Below are positions 3,159 through 45,371 of a stretch of 45,371 nucleotides of DNA, one piece after another. The notes below the pieces were generated by a model. The model worked only from the letters and a program-made list of their open reading frames with translations. It was not told where the DNA came from and searched no databases. This DNA is from an uncultured delta proteobacterium (lineage in GTDB: Bacteria > Desulfobacterota > Binatia > Bin18): the NCBI GenBank assembly GCA_963733195.1, contig CAVTCR010000082.1:1-45371 (forward strand). Reading direction: 5' to 3'. The translations under genes were made by a program, and so were the position numbers. The stretch's first letter is position 1. Every line of letters starts with the position of its first letter.

Positions 3159-6100
3159 CTACGATAATTCCTCCAGCAGCGCCTTCGCCTCTTGCAAATC
3201 CTTGGTATCAAACCTTCGGTGAACCAGTTGTAAATCTCGGATAACATCTGGTGAGCTTCGGTCGTGCTTCGTTTGCGTGGTGCTGCTGTTGCCACTAGTC
3301 GTGCCGAGACTCATCATCGCGCGGAGTTCCAGCGATTTGGCTTGTTGCTTGCGGGAGATATCGATGGCTTTCAGGAAACACGCTTCGGCTTCGCCTCGCT
3401 GGGGTGCTCGGTGGTTAGGGGTTGGGGTTGGGGACTTTCGACTACTGAGACACTGACGACTTTGACAACTTTTGAAGCGTCAGTTCCCCTTTGAGCCGGT
3501 AGAGTTCGGCTTCGTAGAATCGCTCCCCGGTCTTGTTCGACGAATGCTAAGCGCCTCGGCCAGTGCGCGTAAGCCCTTCTTCCGTTTGCCCGACTTTCCC
3601 ATATGCCTCAGCCAGCAAGGCGAGAAAGTATGATCTGCTGCAACTCTGCCCCCATGCTTCTGTAATGCCGCCTAGCCCCTGGTGAATCTCGTTCAATCCC
3701 TTCTTCTCCCTGTCCCTGCTCGGCCAGCGCCCATCCCCTGCAGTGATAGTCCCCCATGCCGACCAGAGTGGAATCCCTTGCTCAGCGAGAGAGCAATCAC
3801 CGCAGCTTCCGCTTGTTCTTGGGCTAACAGGGCCTCTCCCGCCGGTATTGATGAATCCATGGCAGCGAAGCCAAGCGCAAAAGTCGAAGCTGTAGGGATG
3901 GGCAAGTTCTTGGGCTAACAGAGAGCGCTTCGGTAATGCTCTTCAAGGCCTGGTCCGGATAGCCAAGATCCCACAAAGCCCAGGCCATAGGGCCAGCGAA
4001 CTGACCTTCGGATCTTGACCGTAGAAAAAGGCAAGGGCATGGTGCTGCCTGAGGGTCATAGAGCGCCACTCCCTTGCTCAAAGTGATCTCGGGCTGCGGC
4101 TCAACTCTCCGCGCATCAGCAATGGTACCTCCCAGCGCAAAATGTGCCTCCATTAAGAGCGCCGGGTCTTGGACCTTGTGGGCTAGAGCTAGAGACTGCG
4201 TCTCCCAGCTCCGTGCCGTCTGAGTAATCAGCCCGAGCAAAATAGAAATACCACAGCCCCCATAGCACGGAGAAAAGCTGCGGGGTCTCGCCGATCTGCT
4301 GGCACAGTTCCTGTGCCCGGGTGTAGGCTGTTCTACTTCTGGTGCCGCATACCCTTTCGTCGCCATAAGGGGACCACCAAGAGCAATGTGCAATGCGAGT
4401 TCTTTTTGGATACGTTCGGCGGTACTCGGCAGAGTCTGTGAGCAATCTAAAGCAGTCGTCAGATGACTAATCGCTTCCGCATTTGCCGACCGCTGCACGG
4501 CTTGTTGTCCGGCGAGTTGGAGATAATCGACCGCCTTCTGTGTGTTGCCACTGCGACTGTAATGATAGGCTAACTCGCTGTAATGGTCGTCGAGTCGATG
4601 TCGATATACTTCCTCAATTGCCTGCGCCGTGCGTTCGTGCAGGACTTTGCGCCGCTCCATCAGCAACGAATTGTATGCGACTTCCTGCGTCAGCGCGTGC
4701 TTGAAGATGTATTCCACTTCGGGGAATGCGGGCTGTTCGTAGACAAATTCTCCTGCTTGTAAGCGCGATAACAAGCGATGAAGGTTCATCTTCTGGTTGG
4801 GTGACGACTTTGCGTAACAGACTCGACGAGAACTCGCGTCCGATGACAGCCAGGGTTTGCAGGAGTGATTTCTCTTCGGGTGATAACCGATCCATGCGGG
4901 CAGTGAGCACGCCTTGGACAGTGGTGGGAAGCCGTAGGTCTCGTATGGGTGCGGCGCTGCCCACCCTGCGCGGACCCTGCGATCAGAGTAACTCCTTGTT
5001 CGCGTAACTCCTGCACGATCTCTTCCATGAAGAAAGGATTGCCTTCGGTCTTGGCGAGGATGAAGCGTTTGAGGGTTTGTAGGGGCGCTTCGCTGTGTGC
5101 GCCCGGTCCCGTCGGGCCGACACGTAGGTCGGCCCCTACAGTTTCCCCTAACAATGCCTCCAACATTTCTTCTGCTTGCTCTTTCCCTAACGGGTCCAGC
5201 CGTAATTGCGAGAAGTAGGTCTTGCCACTCCATTGGTGTTGATACTCGGGGCGGTAATTGACCAGCAGGAGGATTCTCGCCGTCGCCACACTTTCACTCA
5301 GTAATTGCAGAAAGGCCTGCGTCTCGGCATCGAGCCAGTGCAAGTCTTCAAAGATGATAATCAACGGTTGATTGAGACTCTCTCTGAGCAACAGCCGCTT
5401 GATCGCTTCTAAGATGCGCTTGCGGCGAATTTGCGCGTCCATTTGCTGCAATGGTGACGTGGGTTCGGCAATGCCCAGCAAGAAGAACAGATACGGCAAG
5501 ATGTCTTCCAAGCTGCGATCTAATGTCAGCACCTTGCCGGTGATCTTTTCCCGTCGTCGCCGTTCATCATCTTGGTTGGTGAGTTGGAAGTAGTTCTTGA
5601 GCAGATCAATCAACGGCAGATACGGATACGCTTTACCGTGGGAGACGGAGAAGGTTTCCAATACGCAGAGCAGGGGCCGCGTTGCGTGCACGCCCCTACA
5701 AATTCATAGAACAGGCGTGACTTGCCAACCCCTGGCTCGCCCATCACCCCAGCAATCTGTCCATGCCCGGCTTTGGCTTGCTCCAATGCGTGCTGGAGCA
5801 GCGCCACCTCATTGTGTCGCCCGACAAAGCGGGCCAAACCACGGCGTACTGAGAGTTGCAGCTTGGTCCGCAGTGGCCCTACTCCAGCCACTTCATAGAT
5901 GTTCAGCGGTTCAGCAAAGCCTTTGATCTGGGCTTGGCCTAATGGCTTGAACTCAAAGTAGCCTTCGGTGAGTTTGTACGTCTGCTCACTGACCAGGATC
6001 GAGCCCGGCGTTGCCAGACTCTCCATTCTCGACGCGAGATTTGTCGACTGTCCCACAGGGACATAGTCGGTGTGCAGGTCATCTTTTCTGATCGAGCGCA

Positions 6101-6761
6101 GAACGACTTCGCCGGTGTTGATGCCTACGCGAATCTGCAGGTTGATCCCTTTGTCGCGGCGCAGCTGTTCTGCGCGTTTGCGACTTTCCTCTTGCATCAG
6201 CAACGCTGCATACAGTGCGCGCTGCGGATGATCTTCATGGGCAATCGGTGCCCCGAACAAGGCAAAGATGCCATCGCCCAACGCTTGCGCGACATAGCCT
6301 TCATAGCGATGCACCGCATCCATCATCAATTGCAGCGTTGGATCAACAATGGCGCGAGCTTCTTCGGGATCAAGGTCAGCAATGAGATCGGTCGAACCTT
6401 TGATGTCGGCAAACAGGGCAGTAATGCTCTTGCGCTCACCATCGGTGACACCTCGCGCTTCCATCGCTTCCCGCTCAGCTTGAATCCGTTCGGCTAAATG
6501 CGCAGGGGTATAATTCGCTGGGGGCTGGGGACTATGGGCTAGGTGCTGGGTGTTAGGTGTCGGGGGTTGGACGGGGACTTTAGACTCTGGACCTTGGACT
6601 CTGGACTGCTGTGTTAGCGGCGTGCCACACTCATTACAAAATCGGCTGCCGGGCGGATTCACACGCCCACACTGATGGCAAGCGGCGTCCAGCTTCGCGC
6701 CACAGGCATTGCAAAACTTCGCGTCTGCGGGATTCTCATGTTGGCACTGCGAGCACGTCAC
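3159..6761 (-). CDS. Double zinc ribbon - class III adenylate/guanylate cyclase - AAA ATPase - TPR protein, multiply frameshifted
   Basis: CxxC ribbons, ALFADIKGST, GDG, RVGINTGEV, Walker A GEPGVGKS, FEDLHW, FKHALTQEVAY and a C-terminal WFTEG..DLQEAKALLEELS* spread across several frames. Confidence 0.9.
5078..5140. repeat. GTAG-family REP pair inserted in frame in the cyclase gene
   Basis: tgtaggggc...gcccctaca inverted ends; translates as VGADLRVGPTGPGAHSEAPLQ. Confidence 0.75.
6518..6606. repeat. Coding heptamer repeats forming a Pro/Gln-rich linker
   Basis: agactct-ggacctt-ggactct-ggact and gggtgtt-aggtgtc units between the zinc ribbons and the cyclase domain. Confidence 0.6.
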
Positions 6762-15642: not shown

Positions 15643-17558
15643 AGTGTTTTCTCCTCGCGCCCGCCGGGCTGAGAGTTACGCAAGAACACGTCATCCCAGA
15701 GTTGGACTTTCAGGACGGCCATCAGCACCCAACCATAGTCGGCGTGGCCGGCCTGATGTTGCTGGAGCATGTGACACACGCGCTGCGAATCGAAATACCC
15801 TTTGTCTCGGACTTTTCGTTCCGACAACAGCTCGCTCGCAAATTCCGGCAACCGCCGCAGCCAGGAATGAAATGGAGCGGTAAGTCCGCGTTTTTTTTCT
15901 GTGCACAATTTCCGGTGGCAAGATTTCAACCATAGCCCGACGCAGAACATGTTTCTCCTCTAGGCGATGCATTTTGACCTGCGGTGGAATCTGGGCACAC
16001 AGTTTCGACAAATTCATGATCGAGAAACGGCACCCGAACTTCTAAGGAATACGCCATCGACATCGTATCCAGATAACGCACGATATAGTCAGCTAGCCGA
16101 ACGTTCATCTCCAGGTACTGCAAGCGAGCAAAGGGATGCCATCTCGAAAAGTCTTGCGGCAAGGAAAAGGAATCTTCACCGTTAGGCTCAACCCGCAATC
16201 GCTGGCGCAGCTCTTTGGCAAAGAGCCGCTCGCCCCGCCCCTGCGGAGGTAGGCCAATCATGCGTTTGTAGCCTGTCAGACTGAGTGGGTCTGGTGTCCG
16301 CAAAACTTCACTGGGATAGATCCATTTTCTCCTTACGCGCAGCAGCGCAGCCAGCAAGCGACGCATTCTCAAAGGAAACCCGAGAACCGGTTGCAAGCGT
16401 TTCAGGCGATGAAACCAGGGATAGCCGCCAAATACCTCGTCCGACCCTTCACCGGATAAAACGACTTTCAGGTTTCGAGCCGACTCCTGGGCCAACAACA
16501 AACGCGAAACTTCAGTTCCTCCAGTGTGGGGGTCCTCACTGTGCCACAGCGACTGCGGCAGACGAGTGATGTCCTCAGTCGTGCAGACGGATCTGCTGAT
16601 TTGACAGCTCGTAGAGCGGGGAAAAAACTCGCTGAGCAGTCGGTTATTGCGCACCTCGTCAACCCTCGGATCATCAAAGGCTAACGTAAAGGTCTGTACC
16701 GAACGATCGAGGAGTCGCTGCATCAAAGCTGTAACGGTGCTCGAGTCGATTCCCCGGACTGAGCCCATGCACCGACTGGCACATCACTGCGGAGGTGCAG
16801 ACGGACGGATTCTTCGAGTTTCGCCCGGACCTGTTCGGCCCACTGTTGAGGATCAGTCGCAGCGGGTCTTCCCCGTGAGCCGGGAAACAGAGTTCCCAAT
16901 ACCGATGGAGCGTCGCTCGCCCTTCTTGATACAGAAGATAATGCGCCGGCGGGAGGCGATGGATCTTGCGGAAGAAGGTTTTCGGCCTCAGGACAAAGCC
17001 GATCGTAAACACATCGTCTAGCGCATGAATATCGAGTTCACGTTCGACCTGCCCACTGGCGAGGATCGCCTTCGACTCTGAGCCGAAGAGGAGCCCGTCA
17101 GTCGTTATCGTATAGTGCAGGGGCTTGATCCCGAGGCGATCACGGGCAAGCATGAGACAGCGCCGACGGCTATCCCACAAGGCGAATCCGAACATCCCCC
17201 GCAGGCGGTGGACACACTCGGCCCCAAACTCTTCGTATAGATGAACAATGACTTCACAGTCTGACTGTGTACGAAAACAGTGTCCTTTTGCGACCAGCTC
17301 GTGTCTCAACTCCTGAAAATTATAGATTTCGCCGTTGCAGACGACAGCGACTGTCCTGTCCTCATTGAAAAGCGGCTGGTCACCGGTTTGCAGGTCGATG
17401 ATACTGAGACGTTGAATGCCAAGTCCGATGCCGGGAGCGATGTGGAAGCCGACACTATCCGGTCCTCGATGGCGAATACTGTCTATCATCCGAGCGAGGA
17501 GATCGCGCTCGACTGGCTGTTCGGGGTGATTGTACACGACACCACCAATGCCGCACAT
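15639..17558 (-). CDS. asnB: Asparagine synthase (glutamine-hydrolysing)-like amidotransferase, frameshifted
   Basis: MCGIGG start, HRGPD, NGEIYN, RDRLGIKP, GIDSS, SGEGSDEVFGGY and EVRVPFLD motifs. Confidence 0.9.
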
Positions 17559-35954: not shown

Positions 35955-36073
35955 GGGAGTTGAGACGCTTGTTCCGCTGTAGTCCTTGCAACTCTATAGG
36001 ACGTTTGATCGACTTTCACCGGCCGCCCCGAGGAGGCAGACTCTGCGGCGGCGAGCACAACCTTCTCTTGGCT

Positions 36074-36242
36074 GCTGCTCAGAAACAAAATGCTCCGCCC
36101 CTGCCCCCCGGATTCCAGCGTGCGCCGGAACCGGAATGACGCAGACGGCATGCCCGTCATTCCGGGCGAGCACCACGAAACCCGGAATCCAGGCGCATCC
36201 AGCTTCTGCCTCCACGCTTAGCGCCCGCGCTATGGAGAACTC
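36074..36242 (+). repeat. Bipartite direct repeat, copy 2, with an internal REP pair (36110-36193)
   Basis: Same 18-bp and 27-bp blocks as 27503-27568, here separated by ggattcc...ggaatgac / gtcattccgg...ggaatccagg palindromes. Confidence 0.8.
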
Positions 36243-36424
36243 GTAAGGCCCTGATACCTCGCCGGACTTCTCAGAAAGTGCCAATGAACGGCACTGTTCC
36301 GGATGTCTTCGCGCATAGGCTTCCGACAAACTTACACCCTCGACGAACCTATTCTCCAGACTGCGCGCCTTTCAACATCAGATGCTACATGAATAGGGGG
36401 GTTCGATGACAACGCGCGTCCCCC

Positions 36425-36484
36425 GGCGACAATACGGCACTGTAGAGTGGGCTCTGGTCGCCATCAGGTCGCTGGAGCACAGAT
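36425..36484 (+). repeat. 60-bp direct repeat, copy 2
   Basis: Matches 8242-8301. Confidence 0.85.
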
Positions 36485-36506
36485 TTTTCTCCTTCCCAGG
36501 CAGAGC

Positions 36507-36690
36507 AGCTCACCGTGTAGCCCGCGAGGTAGTGACCCAGCAAACGCAAGTGCGCACCGACGTGAGGGCCGCCCTTGAGCAGCAACCACACTGTCATCAG
36601 GAACAGCGCGGCTCCGCCCATCAGGGAACACAGGTTAGCCCCAACACGCCCGCCTGGATTTTCACGACCGCCCGACTCACCTCGTCAGTC
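36507..36690 (-). pseudogene. Truncated small membrane protein of glycosylation clusters
   Basis: GGAALFLMTVWLLLKGGPHVGAHLRLLGHYLAGYTVS is cut off just before the 60-bp repeat. Confidence 0.5.
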
Positions 36691-37092
36691 TCCGTCAGCT
36701 GGGATTATGTCCTAGAATCCCTGTAACTGAGAGAGAGTAGACGGGAAGCACTTCTGCGGTAGGTAACCAGGTTACGAGCAAGATTACACAACCACGAGAA
36801 GGAGGGCTCCCGTAGGGAGAAGAAGATAGCACCGAGTGAACAGAAAGCCTAGGCGTTGCGCGCGTTATTACAGGGCCAAGCGGACGTTTGCGTGTTTCCG
36901 AAGCAAGGCTGACCTCCACGTGACCGGGAAGACCGTCCTTCATAGGTACGGCGTCTCTCATGTCGACTCCCGCACCGTGGGGAGGCAGAACGCGGATTTG
37001 AGACTTGGATTTATTTAACTGAAGGCGATAGCATCGCCACCAGTCTGTTAGTTGCATGAGCCATCATTCCGATTTAGTGCAAGTGCCATATT

Positions 37093-37115
37093 ACACGACT
37101 TGGAAGGTTTCACGC
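37093..37115 (+). repeat. 23-bp direct repeat, copy 2 (putative right island boundary)
   Basis: Identical to 7885-7907; 44 bp beyond the CHAT gene stop. Confidence 0.85.
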
Positions 37116-37159
37116 AGAACCAAGGGGCATATTGGAGATGGAATTTTCTCTAACCGACG

Positions 37160-39700
37160 TCAGCGCAACCCAGCTGTGCTCAGGTGCGCTAACAAGTGCT
37201 CTCGAATTGCCTGATCTTTGTAGGGAAGGCTGCGTCGGAGACTATCCAGAGAAATCTGTGGGCTTATCCGCACGATTTCTGCAACTTCGGCGCGGGCCTC
37301 TCCTTCATGGCCTAACTCACTAGCGCTTGCCGCTAGTTCCACATGTGCGCCGATATGCGTAGGGCTGTTCTGCAAAACTTCGCGCTGCACGGCTATTGCA
37401 GCTTCGTACCGCCCGGCTAACCGATGGGCATGTCCGAGAATCCAGAGATACGAAGTTGAAGCTCGCGGATTGAGGCGAATCGCTTTTTGTACCCACTCAA
37501 TAGCTTCATCAGGTTTGCCTACCCAGGTAAGGATCTCTGCGAGGGTGGCACAGCCTTCAGCGTCGTTAGGGTCGAGAGCGATGGCTTTTTCAGTGGTTGC
37601 AATTGCGCGGTCATACTCTTTTTGCCACAAAAACACGTTGCCGAGTACCATGTGGGCGAGTGACAACGAATCATTACGGCTAACGGCTTGTTGCGCGAGA
37701 GACATGGCGCGGTCCAGTGTTTGTGGGGTTTGCTGCCATTGCCAGGTCCACTCCAACAAGTACGTTGCTGCGAGGGCGGCATACGCATCTGCATAATTGG
37801 AATCGAGTTGCGTTGCCTGCTCGAACAATTGGCGTGCTTGTAGAGTCGCTTCTTCGGTTAATTGCCCATAGAGCGTCCAGCCACGTAAAAAGAGGTCGTA
37901 GGCTTCTAAGTTGTTGGTGGGAATACGATTAAGGCGGCGTTGCTCTTCCGGGGCAATTTGCACCCGTAGGGCTGCGACAATTTTGCTCGTGATCTCATCT
38001 TGGAGGGTAAAAATATCCTGCCATAGACGATCATAACGTTCCGCCCAAAGGGGCGAGTTTGTTGTCGTATCGACAAGCTGTGCGGTAATCCGTACCCGCT
38101 TATCCGCTTTGCGGACACTGCCTGCCAAAATATACCGCACCCCAAGTTCTCGGCTGATTTGCTCAGGCTTGGTCATTTTGCCTTTGTAGAAAAAGGCTGA
38201 GTTACGGGCGATGACGAAGAGGTTCGACAACTTAGAGAGGTCGGTAATCAAATCCTCGGAGATGCCATCGCTGAAATACTCTTGCTCTGGGTCGTGACTG
38301 AGATTGAGAAACGGAAGGACGACAAGAGAAGGTTTGTTCGGATACGGAAGGGAGTGGTCATTCTGAGTAGAGCCAGGCATCTGACGTTGATGAAAATGCT
38401 GGAGCACTGGAGTGAAGAACAACACACTTGCTGTGAGAAAAAGGAGTCCCAGACTGACGAACCATAACCGACTGGAGAAACGTTTTCCTCTGGGAGGAAA
38501 TGAAAGGGGAAGTGCAGTGCTGGCAGATACAACTGGATGGTTGACCTGCCCCGTGATGACAATAGGAGCAATCGGAGAGTCGATAAAAGAAGAAACAGAA
38601 GGTGCTTTTTCTTGTCCCGGTGACAAAAGAGTAAAGGTAGGGTCGCCGTACAAGACGTAACTTGCCCAGGTCAGGCTGTTCCATCCCTTCTGTTGTATGA
38701 TGGCATGTCGTGCAGCGAGCAGCGCCGTACCCAAACTGAGTCCAGAGAGCAGATTCTGATAGAAGGTCGTAGCAAAGAGTCGACTTTCTTCGTCATCAAC
38801 CTCCCAGAACGTACCAATATAGTTTTTCACTCCTGCTAAGAGAAACGCACTGCCGATACCAAACGCCTGCCCTTCGTAGCCGTAATTTCCGCTCCATTCT
38901 GCGGTTGCTCCTGCCTGGCACGAGTTGGAAAACACCACCTGCGGCGGGTGACTACATTTACTCAACTCTCCGGCGGTGAGGATGCTGTCATGCAAGCGCC
39001 AGCCGCTTTTACTCGGAGTGCGTGGATCGTAAAAACTATGCCCGGCAAAGTGGACGAGGTCATACTCTTGTAATTCTGTGAGCAGTGGGATTTTCTGAAT
39101 CTGTTTTCCACCCAGAAGGGAAACCTCGACCTGTGGAATGTCGTCGAGCAATGTACAGAGCAATTGTGCTTCTTTGTTGGCTTCTGGCAGTGTCTCAGTT
39201 GGGTCAACAATGAGAAGGATTCTGAGGGGTTTGTCCTGCTCTTGTGCTCGTATGCTCCGCGGGATCGGTGCGCCGGTAATAACTTGCCTACCTACGGGAA
39301 ACTTAGTGACAAGAAATTGCTCACCATCAAAGCACAGTTCCCAGGGGATCTGCATGAGCTGTTCGTCCAGCCGGAGATACAGATTAACTGCCTCTGCGGT
39401 ACGGAGGCGATTGCGTGCAGGCTCGGTGAGCAGGTGGGAGAAAATCAAGCCGCCGACTCGTTGGAGGTCGTGGATAACTGTGCCTGGTTGCAGAGAAGTG
39501 AAGTTTCTAGAAGAGGCTGAGCTTGCACTCCTTCCGTAACCAGGACTAGCCAGACGCATAACCGCGGCAGTCAGTTCTTGTAGAAAGGGTGACTCGACTT
39601 GGGTTTCGCTCCGCGGAATCAGGGACCCAACTTCATCCAGATCGATAATGAGAGAATCGCCCTTACGGAGGACAGTCAAGTGGATGGGCGTTTTTTCCAT
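37160..39700 (-). CDS. CHAT (caspase-like) protease - transmembrane helix - TolB-like - TPR protein
   Basis: Intact 846 aa; IPWEL, VHFAGH (H221), FSNSC (C261), AFLLAGV..YIGTFWEVDD and WASYVLYG; TM LWFVSLGLLFLTASVLFF; SLVVLPFLNLS.DPEQEYFSDG; TPRs with A..LDPN. Confidence 0.9.
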   Translation of the reverse strand: MEKTPIHLTVLRKGDSLIIDLDEVGSLIPRSETQVESPFLQELTAAVMRLASPGYGRSASSASSRNFTSLQPGTVIHDLQRVGGLIFSHLLTEPARNRLRTAEAVNLYLRLDEQLMQIPWELCFDGEQFLVTKFPVGRQVITGAPIPRSIRAQEQDKPLRILLIVDPTETLPEANKEAQLLCTLLDDIPQVEVSLLGGKQIQKIPLLTELQEYDLVHFAGHSFYDPRTPSKSGWRLHDSILTAGELSKCSHPPQVVFSNSCQAGATAEWSGNYGYEGQAFGIGSAFLLAGVKNYIGTFWEVDDEESRLFATTFYQNLLSGLSLGTALLAARHAIIQQKGWNSLTWASYVLYGDPTFTLLSPGQEKAPSVSSFIDSPIAPIVITGQVNHPVVSASTALPLSFPPRGKRFSSRLWFVSLGLLFLTASVLFFTPVLQHFHQRQMPGSTQNDHSLPYPNKPSLVVLPFLNLSHDPEQEYFSDGISEDLITDLSKLSNLFVIARNSAFFYKGKMTKPEQISRELGVRYILAGSVRKADKRVRITAQLVDTTTNSPLWAERYDRLWQDIFTLQDEITSKIVAALRVQIAPEEQRRLNRIPTNNLEAYDLFLRGWTLYGQLTEEATLQARQLFEQATQLDSNYADAYAALAATYLLEWTWQWQQTPQTLDRAMSLAQQAVSRNDSLSLAHMVLGNVFLWQKEYDRAIATTEKAIALDPNDAEGCATLAEILTWVGKPDEAIEWVQKAIRLNPRASTSYLWILGHAHRLAGRYEAAIAVQREVLQNSPTHIGAHVELAASASELGHEGEARAEVAEIVRISPQISLDSLRRSLPYKDQAIREHLLAHLSTAGLR

Positions 39701-39716
39701 GACGAATCAGCGTCTC

Positions 39717-40571
39717 TTATGCATGCAGTTCGACCTCGAATGATGCCTCTATACCAGCGCAAACAATCTCATAGAGTCCAGGAGCAAGATGGGGAACTCG
39801 GAGGACTCCTTGCTGGTCTGTTTTTTTAGAAAGAATCGACTTGCCTTGCTGGTTGAAAAACACGCGTTGTCCAGCCAGGCTTTCCTGTTGCGGACCAAAA
39901 AGCATTAGTGTCAGAGCTATTCCTTTTCCGTCTGGAACTACAGTCAAAGTAATAGTGTACTGCCCGGCAGTGAGCTTGAGGTCAAGCCGAGGAGGCGCTT
40001 CTTCAGAACGATAGGCTGGAGCGGGAACGAACACTTCCTGGATGTCGAAAAATGGGGCAACGAGGTTCTGTTCGAGAAGTTTGAGGCTCTTCTCAACAAG
40101 CTGAATCACGACGCGAGAAAGGACTGTTCTTTGCTCCCCTACTTTTGACCCTTGCCACAATGCGGCAGCTTGTGTTTTCAGCGCAGCCGGGACAGGCTTC
40201 TTCTCGGCTGTAGATAGAAAAGAGGCAGCACGAAACGCTGTCTGTACCTCGTTGAAACAGGCATTACACGTTTGCAGATGTTGCTCAACAATTCCTGTCT
40301 CTCTCTCAGAAAGGAGGCGTTGGGCATAGGCAGCTATTGTCTCTGGAGACAGACAGGTCGGAGTGTGTGGTGTGATTGAAAAGGGAGCAGGGGACTGAGC
40401 CAGGATGGAATGTCCTCTTTCTGCCGCGCGTTGCAGACGAGCCATGAGAGAGCTGCACTTTACGCAGGTTGCAAGGTGCTGGGTCACTACGTGTTCCTCT
40501 TGTGGGGGCGACTCATGGTCGAGCACCCGCGAGAGGAGCGTGATGTCCGGGCACGTCGAGGGGGTGTTCAT
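39717..40571 (-). CDS. Soluble anti-sigma-like protein with two zf-HC2 motifs and a C-terminal beta-sandwich
   Basis: HLATCVKC and HLQTCNAC motifs; no evident TM; C-terminal TDQQGVLRVPHLAPGLYEI resembles a carboxypeptidase-regulatory-like fold. Confidence 0.8.
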   Translation of the reverse strand: MNTPSTCPDITLLSRVLDHESPPQEEHVVTQHLATCVKCSSLMARLQRAAERGHSILAQSPAPFSITPHTPTCLSPETIAAYAQRLLSERETGIVEQHLQTCNACFNEVQTAFRAASFLSTAEKKPVPAALKTQAAALWQGSKVGEQRTVLSRVVIQLVEKSLKLLEQNLVAPFFDIQEVFVPAPAYRSEEAPPRLDLKLTAGQYTITLTVVPDGKGIALTLMLFGPQQESLAGQRVFFNQQGKSILSKKTDQQGVLRVPHLAPGLYEIVCAGIEASFEVELHA

Positions 40572-41536
40572 GGTCTACCTCTCTCTTGAGTTTCTTCCTC
40601 ACCGAACTCTTGTATGAGACGTTGGCGAAGGCGGCAAACCCGAGAACTCACGGTTCCCACGGTCAGATTGAGAAGCCGCGCGATATCTTTGTATGAGGTT
40701 GTCATTTTACTGGTACGTAGCTCTTCTAGTATCCGTGCTTTTTGCTGATAGCGTTTTGTTAGGGCCTGTTCGATCTCCTCCCGTTGCTGTAGCAACGGTA
40801 TCTGATCTGTAGCATTCCCTTGTGTTTTTATAAGAAGAATTTTTTCTTGTATTTCCTGCAACTCTTTTTGTCGCAGGAGAATCCACCCCCACACCGAATC
40901 CAGTTCGTCATCGAGTTGGGTCAACTTGACATCTTTCCGTCGCAGGTTTGCTTGTATCTCAGCGACCAAGGCCAGGGTATCAATGATCGACCGCCCCGAG
41001 CTCTTGGCGAGTAGTCGAATATCATCAGGATCAAGCTCACACTCTAAAAGTGAAAGCAGTTTCAGATCAAGGCGTTCCTCTGGAGTGAGAGAGCCCCATA
41101 CTACTGAAAGAGAGCTTGTCGAAATTGACGCTTCTTCTCTGGTGTTCCAATGGTCATGGCTGGGAAGAACATCTTCTAAAGTTCTACTTTCCCCGTCGGC
41201 TGAAGTATCCAAGGGAGTGGATAGTGAAATAGTCTCAAGGTTTTTTCGCGTTCGTTGCCACTCTAAAAACAGATGTTTGAGTACGTAATAGGAGAGAAAG
41301 GTACGGAACTGGATGCTATTGCGCCCTTCAAACGTCCGCATACGAGTGAAAATGCGCTCGTTCTCAAAGACATACAGGTAGAAGTCTCCAGCATCTTCCT
41401 CGGGGAGGCGATAGATTTTTATCGGGAAATTGTAAATATCTTCGCCGTACTCTTCTTGAAAACGCAGGCGTGCATCATTGTTCCCACTCGCGCAGGTCTG
41501 CAAAAAGGCACGAATATCGGCAGGCTCGTGGGACAT
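40568..41536 (-). CDS. ECF-like sigma-70 factor with a coiled-coil insertion
   Basis: Region 2-like EEDAGDFYLYVFE...FEGR...FRTFL; region 4 LTPEER...SYKDIARLLNLTVGTVSSRVCRLRQRL; stop overlaps the anti-sigma start. Confidence 0.85.
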   Translation of the reverse strand: MSHEPADIRAFLQTCASGNNDARLRFQEEYGEDIYNFPIKIYRLPEEDAGDFYLYVFENERIFTRMRTFEGRNSIQFRTFLSYYVLKHLFLEWQRTRKNLETISLSTPLDTSADGESRTLEDVLPSHDHWNTREEASISTSSLSVVWGSLTPEERLDLKLLSLLECELDPDDIRLLAKSSGRSIIDTLALVAEIQANLRRKDVKLTQLDDELDSVWGWILLRQKELQEIQEKILLIKTQGNATDQIPLLQQREEIEQALTKRYQQKARILEELRTSKMTTSYKDIARLLNLTVGTVSSRVCRLRQRLIQEFGEEETQERGRP

Positions 41537-41572: not shown

Positions 41573-42775
41573 TCAAGCACAATCACATTGACCCCCATTC
41601 CCTTTGGCAACAACGGGAAGTTCGGCTGGACCAATGATAAGCCCTTCGCCAAGAGAGAGTGAACTGAGTACACCTGAACTCTGACTGCCAGTAGAATGCG
41701 CTATGTAGTGGCCATGTTCGTGGGTGATGCGACAGCGGACAAACTCGGTCAGCCCCTTAGCCTTTGAGATATCCTCACCAAGCGTCGCTGACAGGACCGG
41801 GAGAAAGAGTTTCTCGTGGCCCGTCATGCGCCGCAAGGCTGGGCGGACGTATAAGTAAAAGCAGACTAGAGCAGAGACTGGATTTCCGGGAAGCCCAAAG
41901 TACGGGCGTTCACGGAGCAATCCGAACGTGAGAGGTTTTCCCGGTCGTTGCGCCACTTGCCAGAACAAACGGTGCATCCCGAGTTCATCCATCGCTTGTT
42001 TGACGAAGTCAAAATCACCAACTGAAACGCCACCGGTTGAGAGGACAACATCGTGCCGGACAGCTTCAGCTAACGCCGTGCGAATCTCTTCAAGCGTGTC
42101 ACGAGCAATAGCGAGTGGAACAGGAACGCCACCTGCCTCGCGCACCGCAGCGGCAAGGGTATACGCGTTGGAGTTCACAATTTGTCCAGGCCGTAATGCG
42201 TCATCAATTTCTGCCAGTTCGTTACCAGTGCTCAGGATTGCAACGCGCGGACGCTGATAGACGAGTACGAGGCTGCGCCCGACAGAGGCCAATAGGCCGA
42301 TATCAGCAGGGCGTAAGACGCGACCTTTCTCTAAAACAAGCTGCCCGCGCTGAATATCCTCACCACTTCCACGCACGTTGTTTCCCGGACGCTCACTACG
42401 TTTAATCCACACGCGACCGTCATGTTCTTCGGTATCTTCAACTTTCACCACGGTATCGGCACCCGACGGCATCACCGCGCCGGTCATGATCTTACTTGCA
42501 GTGCCAGGAATCACCAGCTGTTTTGGAACCGCACCAGCTTGAATGACTTCTAACACGCCAAGCGTTACTGGCTGATCCGCATTAGTATCGCGAACGTCAT
42601 CCCAGCGGACGGCGTAGCCATCCATGGCCGAGTTCGCAAACGGTGGGACTTCGCGCTCCGAGCGGATTTCCTCAGCTAACACCCGACCGACAGCATCCAG
42701 AAGTCCAATCCTTTCACCTGCTAAAGGGGAAACAGTATCGAGAATTGTCGTTAATGCGTCATGTACGGAAATCAT
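41573..42775 (-). CDS. moeA: Molybdopterin molybdotransferase MoeA
   Basis: PPFANSAMDGYAVR, IMTGA, STGNEL, TGGVSVGDFD, RPGKP and GLPGNPVS motifs; last few residues possibly frameshifted. Confidence 0.95.
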   Translation of the reverse strand: MISVHDALTTILDTVSPLAGERIGLLDAVGRVLAEEIRSEREVPPFANSAMDGYAVRWDDVRDTNADQPVTLGVLEVIQAGAVPKQLVIPGTASKIMTGAVMPSGADTVVKVEDTEEHDGRVWIKRSERPGNNVRGSGEDIQRGQLVLEKGRVLRPADIGLLASVGRSLVLVYQRPRVAILSTGNELAEIDDALRPGQIVNSNAYTLAAAVREAGGVPVPLAIARDTLEEIRTALAEAVRHDVVLSTGGVSVGDFDFVKQAMDELGMHRLFWQVAQRPGKPLTFGLLRERPYFGLPGNPVSALVCFYLYVRPALRRMTGHEKLFLPVLSATLGEDISKAKGLTEFVRCRITHEHGHYIAHSTGSQSSGVLSSLSLGEGLIIGPAELPVVAKGNGGQCDCA

Positions 42776-42949: not shown

Positions 42950-43240
42950 CGGTTCATCAGCCTCAAGTGTCGGCGGGAATGAGCGATTTCGGCTGTGAAG
43001 TCATCGAAAGTTGGGTCATCTCGTAGGCTGCCGTAAATCAAGCCAACCACGGATTGGCAGCCTGGTAGGCGATTCTTCCACTAGGTAACAGTTTGCCTTT
43101 TGCCAAGTGCTTAAGAATGGCTGTTGCTTTGGCCAAAGCTTCTTCTTGTGTCATCCCCTCAGCAACGCAATCGGGACTCCCACAACAGTAGCTGAAAATA
43201 GGCCATCAGTGCGACTTTGGACGAATACTTGATATTGCAT
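42950..43240 (-). pseudogene. HicB-like antitoxin, frameshifted
   Basis: MQYQVFVQ...FSATVVG, PDCVAEGMTQEEALAKA and GSLRDDPTFDDF in shifting frames. Confidence 0.65.
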
Positions 43241-43426
43241 AATCGCGTGCCTCTCATCGCTAACATAGCATGGAGGTTTCTACATCAACATCAGGCGTTG
43301 GGCGTTAGGATTGTCGTTTCTCGTTCAAGGTTCATTGTTAGGTGCTGCTGGTTTCTCTCCGCCGTGCTCCATGCTAATGGCAAACAGCGAAAGTATCCGA
43401 GTGTACCGGGTCAAGGAGGGGAGGAC

Positions 43427-45371
43427 ATGCACTGTCCGCAGTGCCAGCATCAGAATAGTGACACTGCCAAGTTCTGTGAAGAATGCGGTGCACGGCTTAT
43501 CACTGCGTGTCCACAGTGTGGACATCAAGCAAGTCCGATAGCGAAGTTTTGTGCGGAATGCGGCACGGCGCTCACGCTGGGGGAAAAGGCGAAAGGGCGA
43601 AACAGGAAACGAATAAGATAGCAGAAGTTGCCAGCTCTCAGTCCTCAGTTGCCAGTTCCCAACCCCAGCCTAACTCCCAGCCGGCGAACGTCGTCAACTC
43701 ACGGTGATGTTCATTGACCTGGTGGGCTCGACGACGCTCTCCCAGCAACTGGACCCGGAAGACTATCATGCCCGGGTGCGCGCCTATCAGACCGCCTGTG
43801 GCCAGATCATCACCCGCTATGACGGCCATATTGCCCAATATTTAGGCGACGGGATGCTAGTGTACTTTGGCTATCCAGCCGCCCATGAAGACGATGCGGG
43901 ACGCGCCGTGCGCAGTGGTCTGGAAATCGTGGCGGCGGTCGGCCAGCTGCACTTTACCCCGCCCTTACAGATCCGCATTGGTATTCATACCGGGCCGGTG
44001 GTCGTGGCTGAGATTGGTACAGGAGCGCGCACGGAGCAACTGGCGTTAGGCGAAACCCCGAACATTGCCGCCCGTCTCCAAGGCATCGCCGAACCGAAGA
44101 TGATCGTGCTGAGCGGCACGACACAACGGTTGGTGGCGGGGCTGTTCGACTGTCAAGACTTGGGTGCCCAGACGTTAAAGGGTCTCACCACACCGATGGC
44201 GCTGTACCAAGTCCTGGGCGAAAGCACCGCGCAAAGCCGCTTCGATGTTGCGCCGCGACGGGACTGACCCCGCTCGTGGGTCGCGAGGAAGAACTGGCAC
44301 TGTTCATCGGCGCTGGGAACAAGTCAAAGAGCGAGAAGGCCAGGTGGTATTGCTCAGTGGGGAGCCGGGCATTGGCAAATCACGCCTGGTCGGGAATGCG
44401 CAACCGGGTAGAACAGGACAGTGCCATGCGCATCGAATTTCGCTGCTCGCCTTATTATCAGAACAGCGCCCTGTATCCGGTCATCGAACACCTCCAGCGC
44501 CTGTTGCAGTGGCAAAAAGACGATCCGGTCCAGATCAGAACCGTCAAACTCCAAGGGACACTCGCTCGATACCGTTTTCCTCAAGCCGACACGCTCGCCT
44601 TGTTTGCCGCACTGCTATCGTTGCCTCATCCTGCTGATGCACCGCCACTCAATCTCAGTCCGCAACGCCAGAAACAGAAGACCGCGGAGGCGTTGATTGC
44701 CTGGCTCGTCGAAGAAGCCGAACAAGCACCGGTGTACTGTGCCTGGGAAGATTTGCATTGGGCGGATCCCTCTTCGCTGGACTTGTTGGGTATCTTAATC
44801 GATCAAACGCCCACTACCCGACTCTTCGTGCTGCTGACCAGTCGGCCCGAGTTCACCCCGCCGTGGGGACAACACGGCCACTTCAGTCAGTTGACCTTGA
44901 GTCGCTTGGGGCGAGGCAGGTGCCGCAGATGATTGAGCAAGCGACCGGGGGCAAGATATTATCGTCAGAAGTGGTGCAGCAGATCATCGCGAAGACCGAT
45001 GGCGTGCCGTTGTTTGTGGAAGAGTTGACGAAGATGGTGGTGGAATCCATTGAGACTATGGGACTACGATTGAGTACCGTTGCGCCGTCGGCGATTCCTG
45101 CGACACTGCAGGATTCATTGATGGCGCGGCTGGATCGGCTGGGGCCAGCCAAAGAGATCGCCCAGGTGGGGGCGACGCTGGGCAGAGAATTTTCCTACGA
45201 GTTGCTCCAGGCGGTCTCGCCTGTGGATGAGAATGCTTCAGCAGGGGCTGAGTCAGTTGGTCGCCGCAGAATTGCTTTATCAACGAGGCTTGCCGCCGCA
45301 GAGTACCTACCTCTTCAAACATGCCTTGATCCAAGACACTGCGTATCAATCCTTACTCAAGAGCCGTCGCC
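43427..45371 (+). CDS. Double zinc ribbon - adenylate/guanylate cyclase - AAA ATPase protein (partial, frameshifted)
   Basis: MHCPQCQH ribbons, MFIDLVGST, YLGDG, RIGIHTG, GEPGIGKS, WEDLHWADPS, GVPLFVEE and FKHALIQD; runs off the window end. Confidence 0.9.

What the first reader, a model, noticed from the sequence alone, without database searches (positions are those of the whole stretch)
37160..41536. CRISPR-independent ECF sigma / double-zinc-finger anti-sigma / membrane CHAT protease signalling operon
Seen: three intact, tightly coupled genes (ATGA overlap, then a 16-bp gap) encode a sigma factor, a TM-less anti-sigma with two zf-HC2 motifs, and a CHAT protease with an intact His221/Cys261 dyad joined by one TM helix to a TolB-like/TPR module. 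Known: in type III-E CRISPR, the CHAT protease Csx29 cleaves Csx30 to release a sigma factor, and ECF anti-sigmas are commonly removed by proteolysis. Inference: an extracytoplasmic TPR sensor activates a cytoplasmic caspase-like protease, which cleaves the anti-sigma and frees the sigma factor. This would be a stand-alone transmembrane proteolytic cascade with no cas genes in the window.
Basis: partly seen in the sequence, partly recalled or inferred. Interest (0 to 1): 0.85.

Follow-up and report, generated by a model that had tools for sequence, protein, structure and literature searches.

The report
Stand-alone caspase-like protease sigma switch
Three intact neighbouring genes encode a sigma factor, its soluble zinc-finger inhibitor and a membrane-anchored caspase-like protease, and they probably form a CRISPR-independent switch in which the protease cuts the inhibitor to turn genes on.

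Summary
Three intact minus-strand genes (ATGA overlap, then a 16-nt gap) encode a 322-aa ECF-like sigma, a soluble 284-aa anti-sigma with two zf-HC2 motifs, and an 846-aa CHAT protease with one TM helix and C-terminal TPRs.

- **Synteny:** outside the window, 21 of 26 loci with this anti-sigma family show the CHAT domain next to the pair. Of the other five, three are cut by contig ends, one holds only the 3' end of a convergent homologue, and one has a Ser/Thr kinase in the CHAT position.
- **Conserved core:** the CHAT module keeps His221/Cys261 in 20 of 20 sequences.
- **Swapped parts:** the sensor part varies (TM+TPR, STAND NTPase, SnoaL, DUF4384). In three loci the sigma type is swapped as well.
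- **Anti-sigma:** only five residues are invariant in 26 of 26 sequences: three zinc ligands, L165, and R188 in an exposed loop.
- **Predicted binding:** the CHAT/anti-sigma complex scored 0.64 against a best control of 0.00.
- **CRISPR:** no cas gene is in the window, and no type III RAMP hit was found in the genome (93% complete).

Best reading: a sensor-activated cytoplasmic CHAT cleaves the anti-sigma. Cleavage, signal and regulon are all inferred. This is a new variant of the Craspase/Csx30 and DdvA/DdvS kind. Earlier scan notes describe analogous modules on other DNA.

The parts
40568..41536 (-). Sigma factor gene (322 aa), ECF-like but long
   Evidence: TIGR02937 scores 53.1 bits (cut-off 42.9) over residues 22-310. 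Its stop overlaps the anti-sigma start as ATGA. Homologues are 53-73% identical in trio loci.
41243..41515 (-). Sigma residues 8-98: helical sigma2-like domain
   Evidence: The AlphaFold model has helices 8-16, 20-42, 46-69 and 77-98, with block pLDDT 67-86. The top Foldseek rows are ECF sigma H/E, but weak (E 0.05).
41117..41242 (-). Sigma residues 99-140: disordered linker with a region 3.2-like motif
   Evidence: Block pLDDT is 35-49 over residues 101-140. The profile aligns positions 101-164 to SigA 7l7b_F 281-344, E 0.002.
40712..41113 (-). Sigma residues 142-275: helical bundle plus a long coiled-coil hairpin insertion
   Evidence: The model has helices 142-149, 152-161, 170-180, 184-239 and 242-275, with block pLDDT 77-93. 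The segment is conserved across 10 homologues.
40604..40696 (-). Sigma residues 281-311: sigma4 helix-turn-helix
   Evidence: Sigma70_r4_2 PF08281 matches residues 281-307 at 26.3 bits (cut-off 25.7). The model has helices 282-289 and 293-311.
39717..40571 (-). Soluble anti-sigma gene (284 aa) with tandem ZAS motifs and a C-terminal beta domain
   Evidence: zf-HC2 matches at E 3e-10 in 2 stretches. No TM segment was found. Its profile hits DdvA-Nt 8rlz_A (4.7e-5) and RsiW 5wuq_C (1.3e-4).
40395..40544 (-). Anti-sigma residues 10-59: first ZAS three-helix unit (H32, C36, C39)
   Evidence: The model has helices 10-17, 23-35 and 37-59. The codons were checked. These residues are nearly invariant in 12 sequences.
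40212..40346 (-). Anti-sigma residues 76-120: second ZAS unit (H98, C102, C105)
   Evidence: H98, C102 and C105 are invariant in 26 of 26 non-identical homologues. This unit forms part of the predicted interface with CHAT (residues 83-117).
39723..40118 (-). Anti-sigma residues 152-283: beta-sandwich domain, CarboxypepD_reg-like
   Evidence: The model is all-beta from 152 to 283. Profile columns of about 223-272 hit giant repeat proteins, one of which carries 38 CarboxypepD_reg stretches. Strand 243-250 gives the lowest-error contacts with CHAT 192-198.
40008..40010 (-). Codon of Arg188, candidate P1 cleavage residue (inference)
   Evidence: R188 is invariant in 26 of 26. It lies in loop 180-195, where block pLDDT is about 58. 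It is not among the confident contacts of the complex model.
37160..39700 (-). CHAT protease / TM / TPR sensor gene (846 aa)
   Evidence: A Binatia MAG carries an orthologue 69% identical over residues 1-846.
38642..39457 (-). CHAT domain, residues 82-353, with His221 (39038-39040) and Cys261 (38918-38920)
   Evidence: PF12770 scores 128.5 bits and the genome search gives the same coordinates. The dyad is invariant in 20 of 20.
38402..38458 (-). Single transmembrane helix, residues 415-433
   Evidence: Hydropathy is 2.14. K/R count is 4 on the N-side and 1 on the C-side. A helix sits in the same place in L023, L024, L026, L061 and L063.
38054..38329 (-). Residues 458-549: predicted periplasmic alpha/beta domain, FlgO/CadC-periplasmic-like (weak)
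   Evidence: FlgO PF17680 matches at E 6.3e-4, 20 bits, below its cut-off of 22.6. CadC PRK10153 matches residues 461-663 at E 2e-9, far below its cut-off.
37271..37843 (-). Residues about 620-810: predicted periplasmic TPR array
   Evidence: TPR_2 (E 5.6e-20), TPR_19, TPR_1 and other TPR families match.

Best explanation
This is a self-contained, CRISPR-independent, protease-gated sigma switch. The proposed mechanism has four steps.

1. At rest, the soluble anti-sigma holds the sigma factor through its tandem zinc-binding ZAS units. This is inferred from homology to DdvA-Nt and RsiW.
2. The anti-sigma's C-terminal beta-sandwich docks on an edge strand of the cytoplasmic CHAT domain, next to the catalytic His. 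This is predicted, not measured.
3. A signal is read by the variable C-terminal part of the CHAT protein. In this copy that part is a periplasmic FlgO/CadC-like domain plus TPRs across one TM helix. In most relatives it is a cytoplasmic STAND NTPase with TPRs. The signal activates the protease, probably by induced proximity or oligomerisation (inference).
4. CHAT cleaves the anti-sigma, possibly after the invariant Arg188 in an exposed loop of the beta domain. The fragments lose their hold or are degraded, and the sigma factor is freed to drive a regulon that remains unidentified (inference).

Shown here: the genes, the domains, the catalytic dyad, the synteny, the sensor and sigma swapping, and a predicted binding mode. 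Not shown: cleavage, the cleavage site, the signal and the targets.
For: Synteny:
- Outside the window, 21 of 26 loci carrying this anti-sigma family show the CHAT domain beside the sigma/anti-sigma pair. These are 17 complete trios plus L032-L035.
- No other neighbouring gene is conserved across the 17 trios.

Modularity:
- Of the 17 complete trios, 9 have CHAT-AAA_16 STAND, 7 have CHAT-TM-TPR and 1 has CHAT-TM-SnoaL. A DUF4384 form also occurs in L034.
- Meanwhile the first ~360 residues of CHAT stay 42-71% identical.

Sigma swap: in L031, L032 and L035 the same anti-sigma family follows a canonical 187-200-aa ECF sigma (TIGR02937, 60-64 bits). That sigma does not match the long-sigma profile.

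Catalysis: H221 and C261 are invariant in 20 of 20.

Anti-sigma conservation: only H98, C102, C105, L165 and R188 are invariant in 26 of 26. R188 lies in a low-confidence loop of the beta domain.

Predicted complex of CHAT 1-400 with the anti-sigma:
- The score is 0.64, against 0.00 for the best of 3 controls.
- That mark was reached by 58 of 80 solved complexes and 2 of 110 mismatched pairs. These counts hold only roughly here because my own alignments were used.
- The runs agree in at least 37% of contacts, and partner pLDDT is at least 69.
- The contacts include CHAT 192-198 and 221-226 with anti-sigma 83-117 and 243-250.

Compartment co-variation: in the distant branch L056-L060 the anti-sigma has a TM helix and a periplasmic tail. 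In 3 of those 5 loci the neighbouring protease is a Peptidase_C14 caspase with an N-terminal hydrophobic anchor.

Precedent: Csx29 (CHAT) binds the C-terminal domain of Csx30, cleaves a loop there and thereby relieves inhibition of CASP-sigma (PMC10028731, passages read).
Against: - No cleavage, binding or expression data exist. All support comes from genomic context and prediction.
- R188 is not among the confident contacts of the complex model, so the proposed site is a guess from conservation.
- One locus (L037, where sigma is 69% identical) has a Hanks-type Ser/Thr kinase in the CHAT position, and no CHAT on the 3.5-kb contig.
- L043 carries the sigma gene alone.
- Two of the five TM-anti-sigma loci show no C14 protease within 7 kb.
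- The family is patchy: 11 of 151 genomes sampled in the class have it.
- No regulon or sigma-specific promoter was found. The consensus scan gave 3 promoter-like sites against 4.2 expected.
- The complex model was built with the same alignments that show the conservation, so those two lines of evidence are not independent.
Confidence: 0.55

Rival explanations
1. The sigma/anti-sigma pair is an ordinary, perhaps redox-sensing, ZAS switch. The CHAT protein is its target or co-expressed effector rather than its activator. On this view CHAT could be a sensor-triggered suicide or conflict protease whose expression the sigma factor controls.
For: Regulators and targets cannot be told apart from gene neighbourhood alone, as the ECF classification paper itself states (PMC7826278, passage read). 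STAND-CHAT fusions are typical of conflict systems; that point is recalled, not tested here. Both ZAS units have a further upstream Cys (C7, C74), giving a possible CHCC set like DdvA.
Against: The predicted CHAT/anti-sigma interface passed its controls. The anti-sigma carries a conserved beta domain and an invariant loop Arg, neither of which a plain ZAS anti-sigma needs. The compartment of the protease follows that of the anti-sigma tail. The CHAT gene is usually co-directional and only 16-70 nt downstream of the anti-sigma gene, though it is divergent in L044 and L050.
Confidence: 0.17
2. CHAT processes the sigma factor itself, in the manner of a pro-sigma. It would cut within the disordered linker or remove the coiled-coil insertion, while the anti-sigma acts independently.
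For: The sigma has an unusual 42-residue disordered linker and a coiled-coil hairpin insertion of roughly 90 residues. These could serve as a processing site or an auto-inhibitory element.
Against: Three loci keep the anti-sigma and CHAT pair but use a canonical short ECF sigma without the insertion. The distant spirochaete and Hydrogenedentota relatives of the long sigma have no protease nearby. No CHAT/sigma model was run.
Confidence: 0.1
3. The interaction is not proteolytic with respect to sigma release. Either the anti-sigma beta domain acts as a securin-like pseudo-substrate that keeps CHAT inactive, or CHAT titrates the anti-sigma away from sigma as in partner switching. CHAT's real substrates would lie elsewhere.
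For: The complex model places ZAS-2 and the beta domain against the catalytic His region, without putting R188 in the site. Separase is held by securin, as the DdvA paper mentions (passage read).
Against: Strict conservation of the dyad (20 of 20) and of a loop Arg (26 of 26) fits a substrate relationship. However, it does not exclude an additional inhibitory role.
Confidence: 0.1

Closest known systems
Type III-E Craspase: Cas7-11/Csx29 (TPR-CHAT), Csx30, CASP-sigma (PMC10028731; passages read)
   Same: A cytoplasmic CHAT protease sits with a soluble two-part inhibitor of an ECF-like sigma. In Craspase the protease recognises the inhibitor's C-terminal domain and cuts a flexible loop there. 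Here the predicted interface also uses the C-terminal domain, and the invariant Arg lies in a loop of that domain.
   Different: - There is no Cas7-11. The genome gave 0 RAMP hits, and no cas family appeared among the window ORFs scanned.
- The sigma scores only 21.8 bits on NF041236 CAS_III-E_sigma, against a cut-off of 100.
- The inhibitor is a tandem-ZAS protein. From the passages read, Csx30 was not described as ZAS-type.
- Activation would come from a TM/TPR or STAND sensor fused C-terminally to CHAT, not from target RNA.
DdvA/DdvS of Myxococcus xanthus (PMC11506125; abstract and passages read)
   Same: A ZAS anti-sigma is functionally tied to a CHAT domain and an ECF sigma. ZAS-1 of the window's anti-sigma family is closest in the PDB to DdvA-Nt (8rlz_A, E 4.7e-5). 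Proteolysis is the proposed release step in both systems.
   Different: - DdvA is one polypeptide: ZAS, a TM helix, then a periplasmic TPR-CHAT. It has an incomplete active site and is proposed to undergo autoproteolysis followed by RseP cleavage.
- Here the anti-sigma and CHAT are separate proteins, CHAT is predicted to be cytoplasmic, the anti-sigma has no TM helix, and the TPRs lie on the far side of the membrane.
- None of the 8 longer profile hits checked carried a CHAT fusion.
CalpL/CalpT/CalpS (SAVED-Lon protease, anti-sigma, ECF-like sigma) of type III CRISPR (10.1101/2024.05.08.593097; search listing and start of abstract only)
   Same: It is a three-part arrangement: a sensor-fused cytoplasmic protease, a soluble anti-sigma and an ECF-like sigma.
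   Different: The protease there is Lon-type with a SAVED cyclic-nucleotide sensor, and it depends on CRISPR signalling. Here the protease is CHAT with TM/TPR or STAND sensors, and no type III system was detected.
ECF54 group (PMC8999054, section 3.3; one passage read)
   Same: ECF sigma genes are reported with CHAT-domain proteins conserved in their neighbourhood, and proteolytic control has been proposed.
   Different: ECF54 is described as lacking an anti-sigma factor and as actinobacterial. Here a dedicated anti-sigma is always present. Membership of the ECF group could not be tested because no ECF-group models are available.

Membership tests
ECF-type sigma-70 family (TIGR02937) | Profile match above the curated cut-off | tested here: met
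   53.1 bits against a cut-off of 42.9, spanning residues 22-310.
ECF-type sigma-70 family (TIGR02937) | A sigma4 region 4.2 helix-turn-helix | tested here: met
   PF08281 scores 26.3 bits against 25.7 at residues 281-307. The model has helices 282-311.
ECF-type sigma-70 family (TIGR02937) | Compact two-domain build of about 170-200 aa with only a short sigma2-sigma4 linker | tested here: not met
   The protein is 322 aa. It has a disordered 99-140 linker with a region 3.2-like motif, plus a helical bundle and coiled-coil hairpin at 142-275. No Sigma70_r2 Pfam hit was listed at E <= 0.1.
ZAS anti-sigma factors (zf-HC2, PF13490) | The H-x3-C-x2-C zinc motif in an N-terminal helical anti-sigma domain | tested here: met
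   Two motifs are present: H32/C36/C39 and H98/C102/C105. The second is invariant in 26 of 26.
ZAS anti-sigma factors (zf-HC2, PF13490) | Binds and inhibits its cognate sigma | not tested
Sigma binding is inferred from adjacency and homology only.
CHAT peptidases (PF12770, caspase fold) | Profile match and a His/Cys catalytic dyad | tested here: met
   128.5 bits against a cut-off of 24. H221 and C261 are invariant in 20 of 20.
Type III-E Craspase system | Cas7-11 (gRAMP) effector encoded with the CHAT protease | tested here: not met
   PF03787 RAMPs gave 0 matches in the 93%-complete genome. No cas family appeared among 42 window ORFs. The Cas1 copies lie on other contigs.
Type III-E Craspase system | CASP-sigma (NF041236) | tested here: not met
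   21.8 bits against a cut-off of 100.
DdvA-type anti-sigma | ZAS, a TM helix and a periplasmic TPR-CHAT in one polypeptide | tested here: not met
   The genes are separate. The anti-sigma has no TM segment, and CHAT lies N-terminal to the TM helix with the positive-inside side at its end. None of 8 longer profile hits had CHAT.
Known anti-phage defence systems (PADLOC-DB v2) | A match of any component to a defence-system model | tested here: not met
   Sigma and anti-sigma gave 0 families. CHAT gave only BovA at E 1.7e-4, 18.7 bits.
ECF54 group | Membership of the phylogenetic group; no anti-sigma in the neighbourhood | not testable with these tools
   No ECF-group models are held. The described absence of an anti-sigma (PMC8999054 passage) does not fit this locus.

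The most novel reading that the evidence does not exclude
A family of sensor-swappable 'receptor, caspase-like protease, anti-sigma, sigma' pathways would form a third general route of sigma-factor activation, beside regulated intramembrane proteolysis and partner switching. In its commonest form an NLR-like STAND NTPase is fused directly to the CHAT protease. That would make it a bacterial receptor-caspase axis whose output is transcription rather than cell death. In this window the same cytoplasmic protease core is instead wired through the membrane to a periplasmic TPR sensor. Parallel periplasmic versions (a C14 caspase with a TM anti-sigma) exist in sister lineages.
Probability: 0.4. Interest if true: 0.8.

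Novelty: new variant of a known kind. Interest (0 to 1): 0.66.

Why it matters
CHAT-mediated release of a sigma factor is known in only two settings. One is as an accessory of type III-E CRISPR. The other is proposed, not proven, for the fused anti-sigma DdvA.

This locus suggests the same logic also exists as a free-standing three-gene signalling cassette. Its protease core is conserved while its input module is exchanged: a membrane TPR sensor, a STAND NTPase, or other domains.

If confirmed, three things would follow:
- It would give a tractable, CRISPR-free system of three soluble or single-pass proteins for studying how caspase-fold proteases are switched on by receptors in bacteria.
- It would supply a candidate defined cleavage motif.
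- It would add programmable protease-to-transcription parts for synthetic biology.

It would also assign a role to part of the large pool of unexplained bacterial CHAT and STAND-CHAT proteins.

Tried and rejected
- **Anti-sigma alignment as a locus query.** The search for related loci with alignment A1 failed because it has no conserved 7-10-column stretch. I used the sigma alignment A2 instead.
- **Word-index homologue search with the anti-sigma.** It returned only close relatives: 22 proteins, mostly unnamed.
- **Conserved neighbours as a clue to the regulon.** No gene beyond the trio is shared across the 17 loci.
- **Promoters.**
  - The consensus promoter/terminator scan was no better than shuffles: 3 sites against 4.2 expected, and 7 against 7.7.
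  - Inspection of sigma-upstream regions by eye showed only sigma-70-like TGnTA(T/C)nAT-type -10 strings in some loci, and no shared ECF-type motif. I make no claim from this.
- **Rfam.** The whole window gave 0 families.
- **PADLOC.** No defence-system assignment was found.
- **Foldseek against the PDB.** Neither the sigma nor the anti-sigma model gave a match at E <= 0.001. Weak top rows were ECF sigmas for the sigma model, and Ig-like, CnaB or ChrR chains for the anti-sigma model.
- **Profile searches against PDB sequences.** The CHAT module gave 0 hits.
- **The C14-caspase loci as a simple second instance.** I rejected this. Their anti-sigma is transmembrane and the caspase appears to be exported, so they are a parallel periplasmic configuration and not the same system.
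- **Earlier scan notes.** Searches by place and by sequence found nothing for this family.

Full report
**1. Observation**

The window carries three consecutive minus-strand ORFs:
- 40568-41536 (322 aa)
- 39717-40571 (284 aa)
- 37160-39700 (846 aa)

The first two overlap by ATGA. The second and third are 16 nt apart, read directly.

The first ORF passes the curated cut-off of the ECF sigma superfamily model (TIGR02937, 53.1 against 42.9 bits) and of Sigma70_r4_2.

The second ORF has two zf-HC2 stretches and no hydrophobic segment.

The third ORF has the following features:
- A CHAT domain at residues 82-353, E 4.5e-37.
- His221 and Cys261, confirmed as codons.
- One TM helix at 415-433, with the positive charges on its N-terminal side.
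- A region at 458-549 that matches FlgO and CadC-periplasmic models only weakly, followed by TPRs.

'TolB-like' is therefore not verified.

The gene upstream is moeA, 36 nt away. The flanks hold polysaccharide and lipid biosynthesis genes and cyclase-STAND genes. No cas family appeared among the 42 window ORFs scanned.

**2. Is the linkage real?**

I approached this from two directions.

*From the anti-sigma.* A protein search over the window's genome and 40 relatives found matches in 14 of 41 genomes. I fetched 13 loci with wider flanks.
- Ten of them have the long sigma directly upstream.
- The other three (L031, L032, L035) have a canonical 187-200-aa ECF sigma there instead. It passes TIGR02937 but does not match the long-sigma profile.

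*From the sigma.* The sigma alignment was searched over one genome per species, which gave 33 loci. Eight are the same contigs as above. Scoring with my own HMMs gave:
- 17 complete sigma/anti-sigma/CHAT trios.
- L041, L049 and L053, cut by contig ends within or just after the anti-sigma gene.
- L037, where a Hanks-type Ser/Thr kinase follows the anti-sigma and no CHAT is on the 3.5-kb contig.
- L043, with the sigma gene alone.
- Five loci of a distant Binatia branch.
- Six still more distant loci (spirochaetes, Hydrogenedentota, one unclassified), which sit in housekeeping contexts beside glmS or glgA without a protease.

*Pooled counts.* Pooling unique loci that carry this soluble anti-sigma family gives 26 outside the window.
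- 21 show the CHAT domain adjacent.
- L031 shows only the 3' end of a convergent homologue at the contig end.

*Other points.*
- No other gene is shared among the trio loci.
- The record titles of these contigs mostly read Candidatus Binatia. Two trios are in Desulfobacteraceae MAGs (L061, L063).
- The family is patchy: 11 of 151 genomes sampled in the class at E <= 1e-20.
- It is also small. A profile search of 1.84 billion representatives gave 52 proteins at E <= 1e-30, and several of those are giant repeat proteins matching only the C-terminal beta unit.

**3. Anatomy and what varies**

*CHAT.* The CHAT module, about the first 360 residues, is the constant part.
- It is 42-71% identical across loci.
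- 55 positions are invariant in 20 non-identical sequences, including H221 and C261.

What follows the CHAT module is exchangeable:

| C-terminal part | Where found |
|---|---|
| AAA_16 STAND NTPase, often with TPRs; about 1240-1390 aa; soluble | 9 of 17 complete trios |
| One TM helix, then TPRs | 7 of 17 complete trios |
| One TM helix, then a SnoaL-like end | 1 of 17 complete trios |
| DUF4384 | L034 |

The soluble STAND forms agree with the positive-inside rule in placing CHAT in the cytoplasm. That is also where the TM-less sigma and anti-sigma must be.

*Anti-sigma model* (pLDDT 77.7):
- Two three-helix ZAS units, at 10-59 and 76-120.
- A disordered stretch at 138-148.
- A beta-sandwich at 152-283, of CarboxypepD_reg type.

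Across 26 non-identical homologues only five residues are invariant. They are the three ligands of ZAS-2, L165, and R188. R188 sits in a lower-confidence loop (180-195) of the beta domain.

*Sigma model* (pLDDT 77.1):
- A helical sigma2.
- A disordered linker whose motif aligns with region 3.2/4.1 of SigA.
- A helical bundle.
- A long coiled-coil hairpin.
- The terminal HTH.

It is an atypical, long ECF-like sigma.

**4. Does CHAT touch the anti-sigma?**

- The score was 0.64, against 0.00 for the best of three controls.
- That mark was reached by 58 of 80 solved complexes and 2 of 110 mismatched pairs.
- The runs agree in at least 37% of contacts, and partner pLDDT is at least 69.
- These counts hold only roughly, because my own alignments were used.

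The lowest-error contacts pair CHAT strand 192-198 with anti-sigma strand 244-250. The interface also includes CHAT 221-226, which holds the catalytic His, and ZAS-2.

R188 is not among the confident contacts. The model supports binding; it does not show it.

**5. A parallel configuration**

In the distant Binatia branch (L056-L060; sigma 31-36% identical):
- The anti-sigma keeps two ZAS motifs but gains a TM helix and a short periplasmic SH3-like tail.
- In 3 of 5 loci the divergent neighbour is a Peptidase_C14 caspase protein with an N-terminal hydrophobic anchor.
- The C-terminal half of that caspase protein is homologous to that of the L044 CHAT protein (E 1.4e-35).

So the protease seems to follow the compartment of the anti-sigma's C-terminal domain. 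That is what a protease/substrate relationship predicts. Two of the five loci show no such protease within 7 kb.

**6. Mechanism**

The best-supported reading (confidence 0.55):
1. The tandem-ZAS anti-sigma sequesters the sigma factor.
2. Its beta domain docks on the cytoplasmic CHAT.
3. A signal read by the exchangeable sensor activates CHAT. In this copy the sensor is a periplasmic domain plus TPRs.
4. CHAT cuts the anti-sigma, perhaps after R188, and the sigma is released.

This mirrors what was shown for Csx29, Csx30 and CASP-sigma. [quoted passage not shown]

The rivals are set out in the Rival explanations section:
- CHAT as a target or effector of an ordinary ZAS switch.
- CHAT processing the sigma itself.
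- A non-proteolytic securin-like or partner-switching relationship.

**7. Comparison with what is known, and novelty**

*CRISPR context.*
- The own genome (93% complete) has no RAMP match.
- Cas1 occurs only on other contigs.
- The sigma fails the CASP-sigma model.
- PADLOC gives no assignment.

*DdvA.* DdvA of Myxococcus fuses ZAS, a TM helix and a periplasmic TPR-CHAT in one protein. Its authors call it the only characterised anti-sigma with TPR-CHAT (PMC11506125; abstract and passages read).

*ECF54.* ECF54 is reported with CHAT neighbours but without an anti-sigma (PMC8999054; one passage). The main text of the ECF reclassification paper does not contain 'CHAT' (PMC7826278), and its supplements could not be opened.

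*Literature searches.* Six full-text searches found no description of a separate cytoplasmic CHAT with a soluble ZAS anti-sigma and a sigma.

*Earlier scan notes.* Notes from this scan describe analogous modules on other DNA. One is an acidobacterial cytoplasmic TPR-CHAT with a soluble ZAS protein (e1-4028405). Others are envelope or periplasmic versions (e1-2968508 and the Bacteroidales notes). They are leads only; I did not test them. No note matched this family by sequence.

*Verdict.* This is a real, conserved, uncharacterised three-gene module. It is a new variant of a known kind, namely protease-gated sigma/anti-sigma switches with a CHAT protease.

Noticed in passing
window 15926-17558 (-); 3824-6761 (-); 43217-45371 (+); also G000:C10:39708-40591, G000:C27:192-6010, G000:C51 and C73: Many genes appear split across reading frames:
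- An asparagine synthase, with its GATase and synthase halves in overlapping ORFs.
- Two zinc-ribbon/guanylate-cyclase/AAA_16 genes.
- A second copy of the long sigma, in three frames.
- A second CHAT gene, in two frames.
- Two Cas1 copies.

Either this genome holds many pseudogenes or the assembly carries indel errors. The trio studied here is intact.
   Followed up: partly
window 35955-37159: A stretch of about 1.2 kb downstream of the CHAT gene has no long ORF. The two ORFs tested there (36695-37057 and 35994-36329) gave no Pfam hit, and Rfam found no family.
   Followed up: partly
L037 2771-3526 (same contig as L025): In one close relative (sigma 69% identical) a Hanks-type Ser/Thr protein kinase gene follows the anti-sigma where CHAT normally sits. 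This may be a swap of the whole input enzyme, or CHAT may lie beyond the end of the 3.5-kb contig.
   Followed up: partly
L056 and L058 (whole loci): These loci hold two sigma/TM-anti-sigma pairs flanking an exported C14 caspase. Secreted proteins of about 500-970 aa with EF-hand or dockerin-like C-termini follow each anti-sigma, and L058 also has Lcl_C-domain proteins.
   Followed up: partly
L062, L064-L068: Distant relatives of the long coiled-coil sigma (22-29% identical) occur in Spirochaetia, Leptospiraceae, Turneriellaceae and Hydrogenedentota MAGs. They sit next to glmS or glgA and a 279-294-aa partner with no Pfam hit, and no protease is nearby. The long sigma family may therefore be older and broader than the CHAT link.
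   Followed up: no
L043 6935-7936: A third copy of the long sigma (58% identical) in the genome that also holds L036 and L042. It stands alone, without an anti-sigma or CHAT within 7 kb. Its neighbours include beta-lactamase-fold and sulfatase genes.
   Followed up: no
L037, L040 (record titles): Two contigs carrying this Binatia-type module are titled 'uncultured Enterobacteriaceae' and 'Klebsiella pneumoniae' MAGs in the public records. These look like labelling errors.
   Followed up: no
window 41573-42775 (-): moeA (molybdopterin molybdenumtransferase) ends 36 nt upstream of the sigma gene, both here and in the closest relative (L036). It is not conserved at other trio loci, so any promoter for the trio would lie inside moeA or the genes are co-transcribed with it.
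   Followed up: partly
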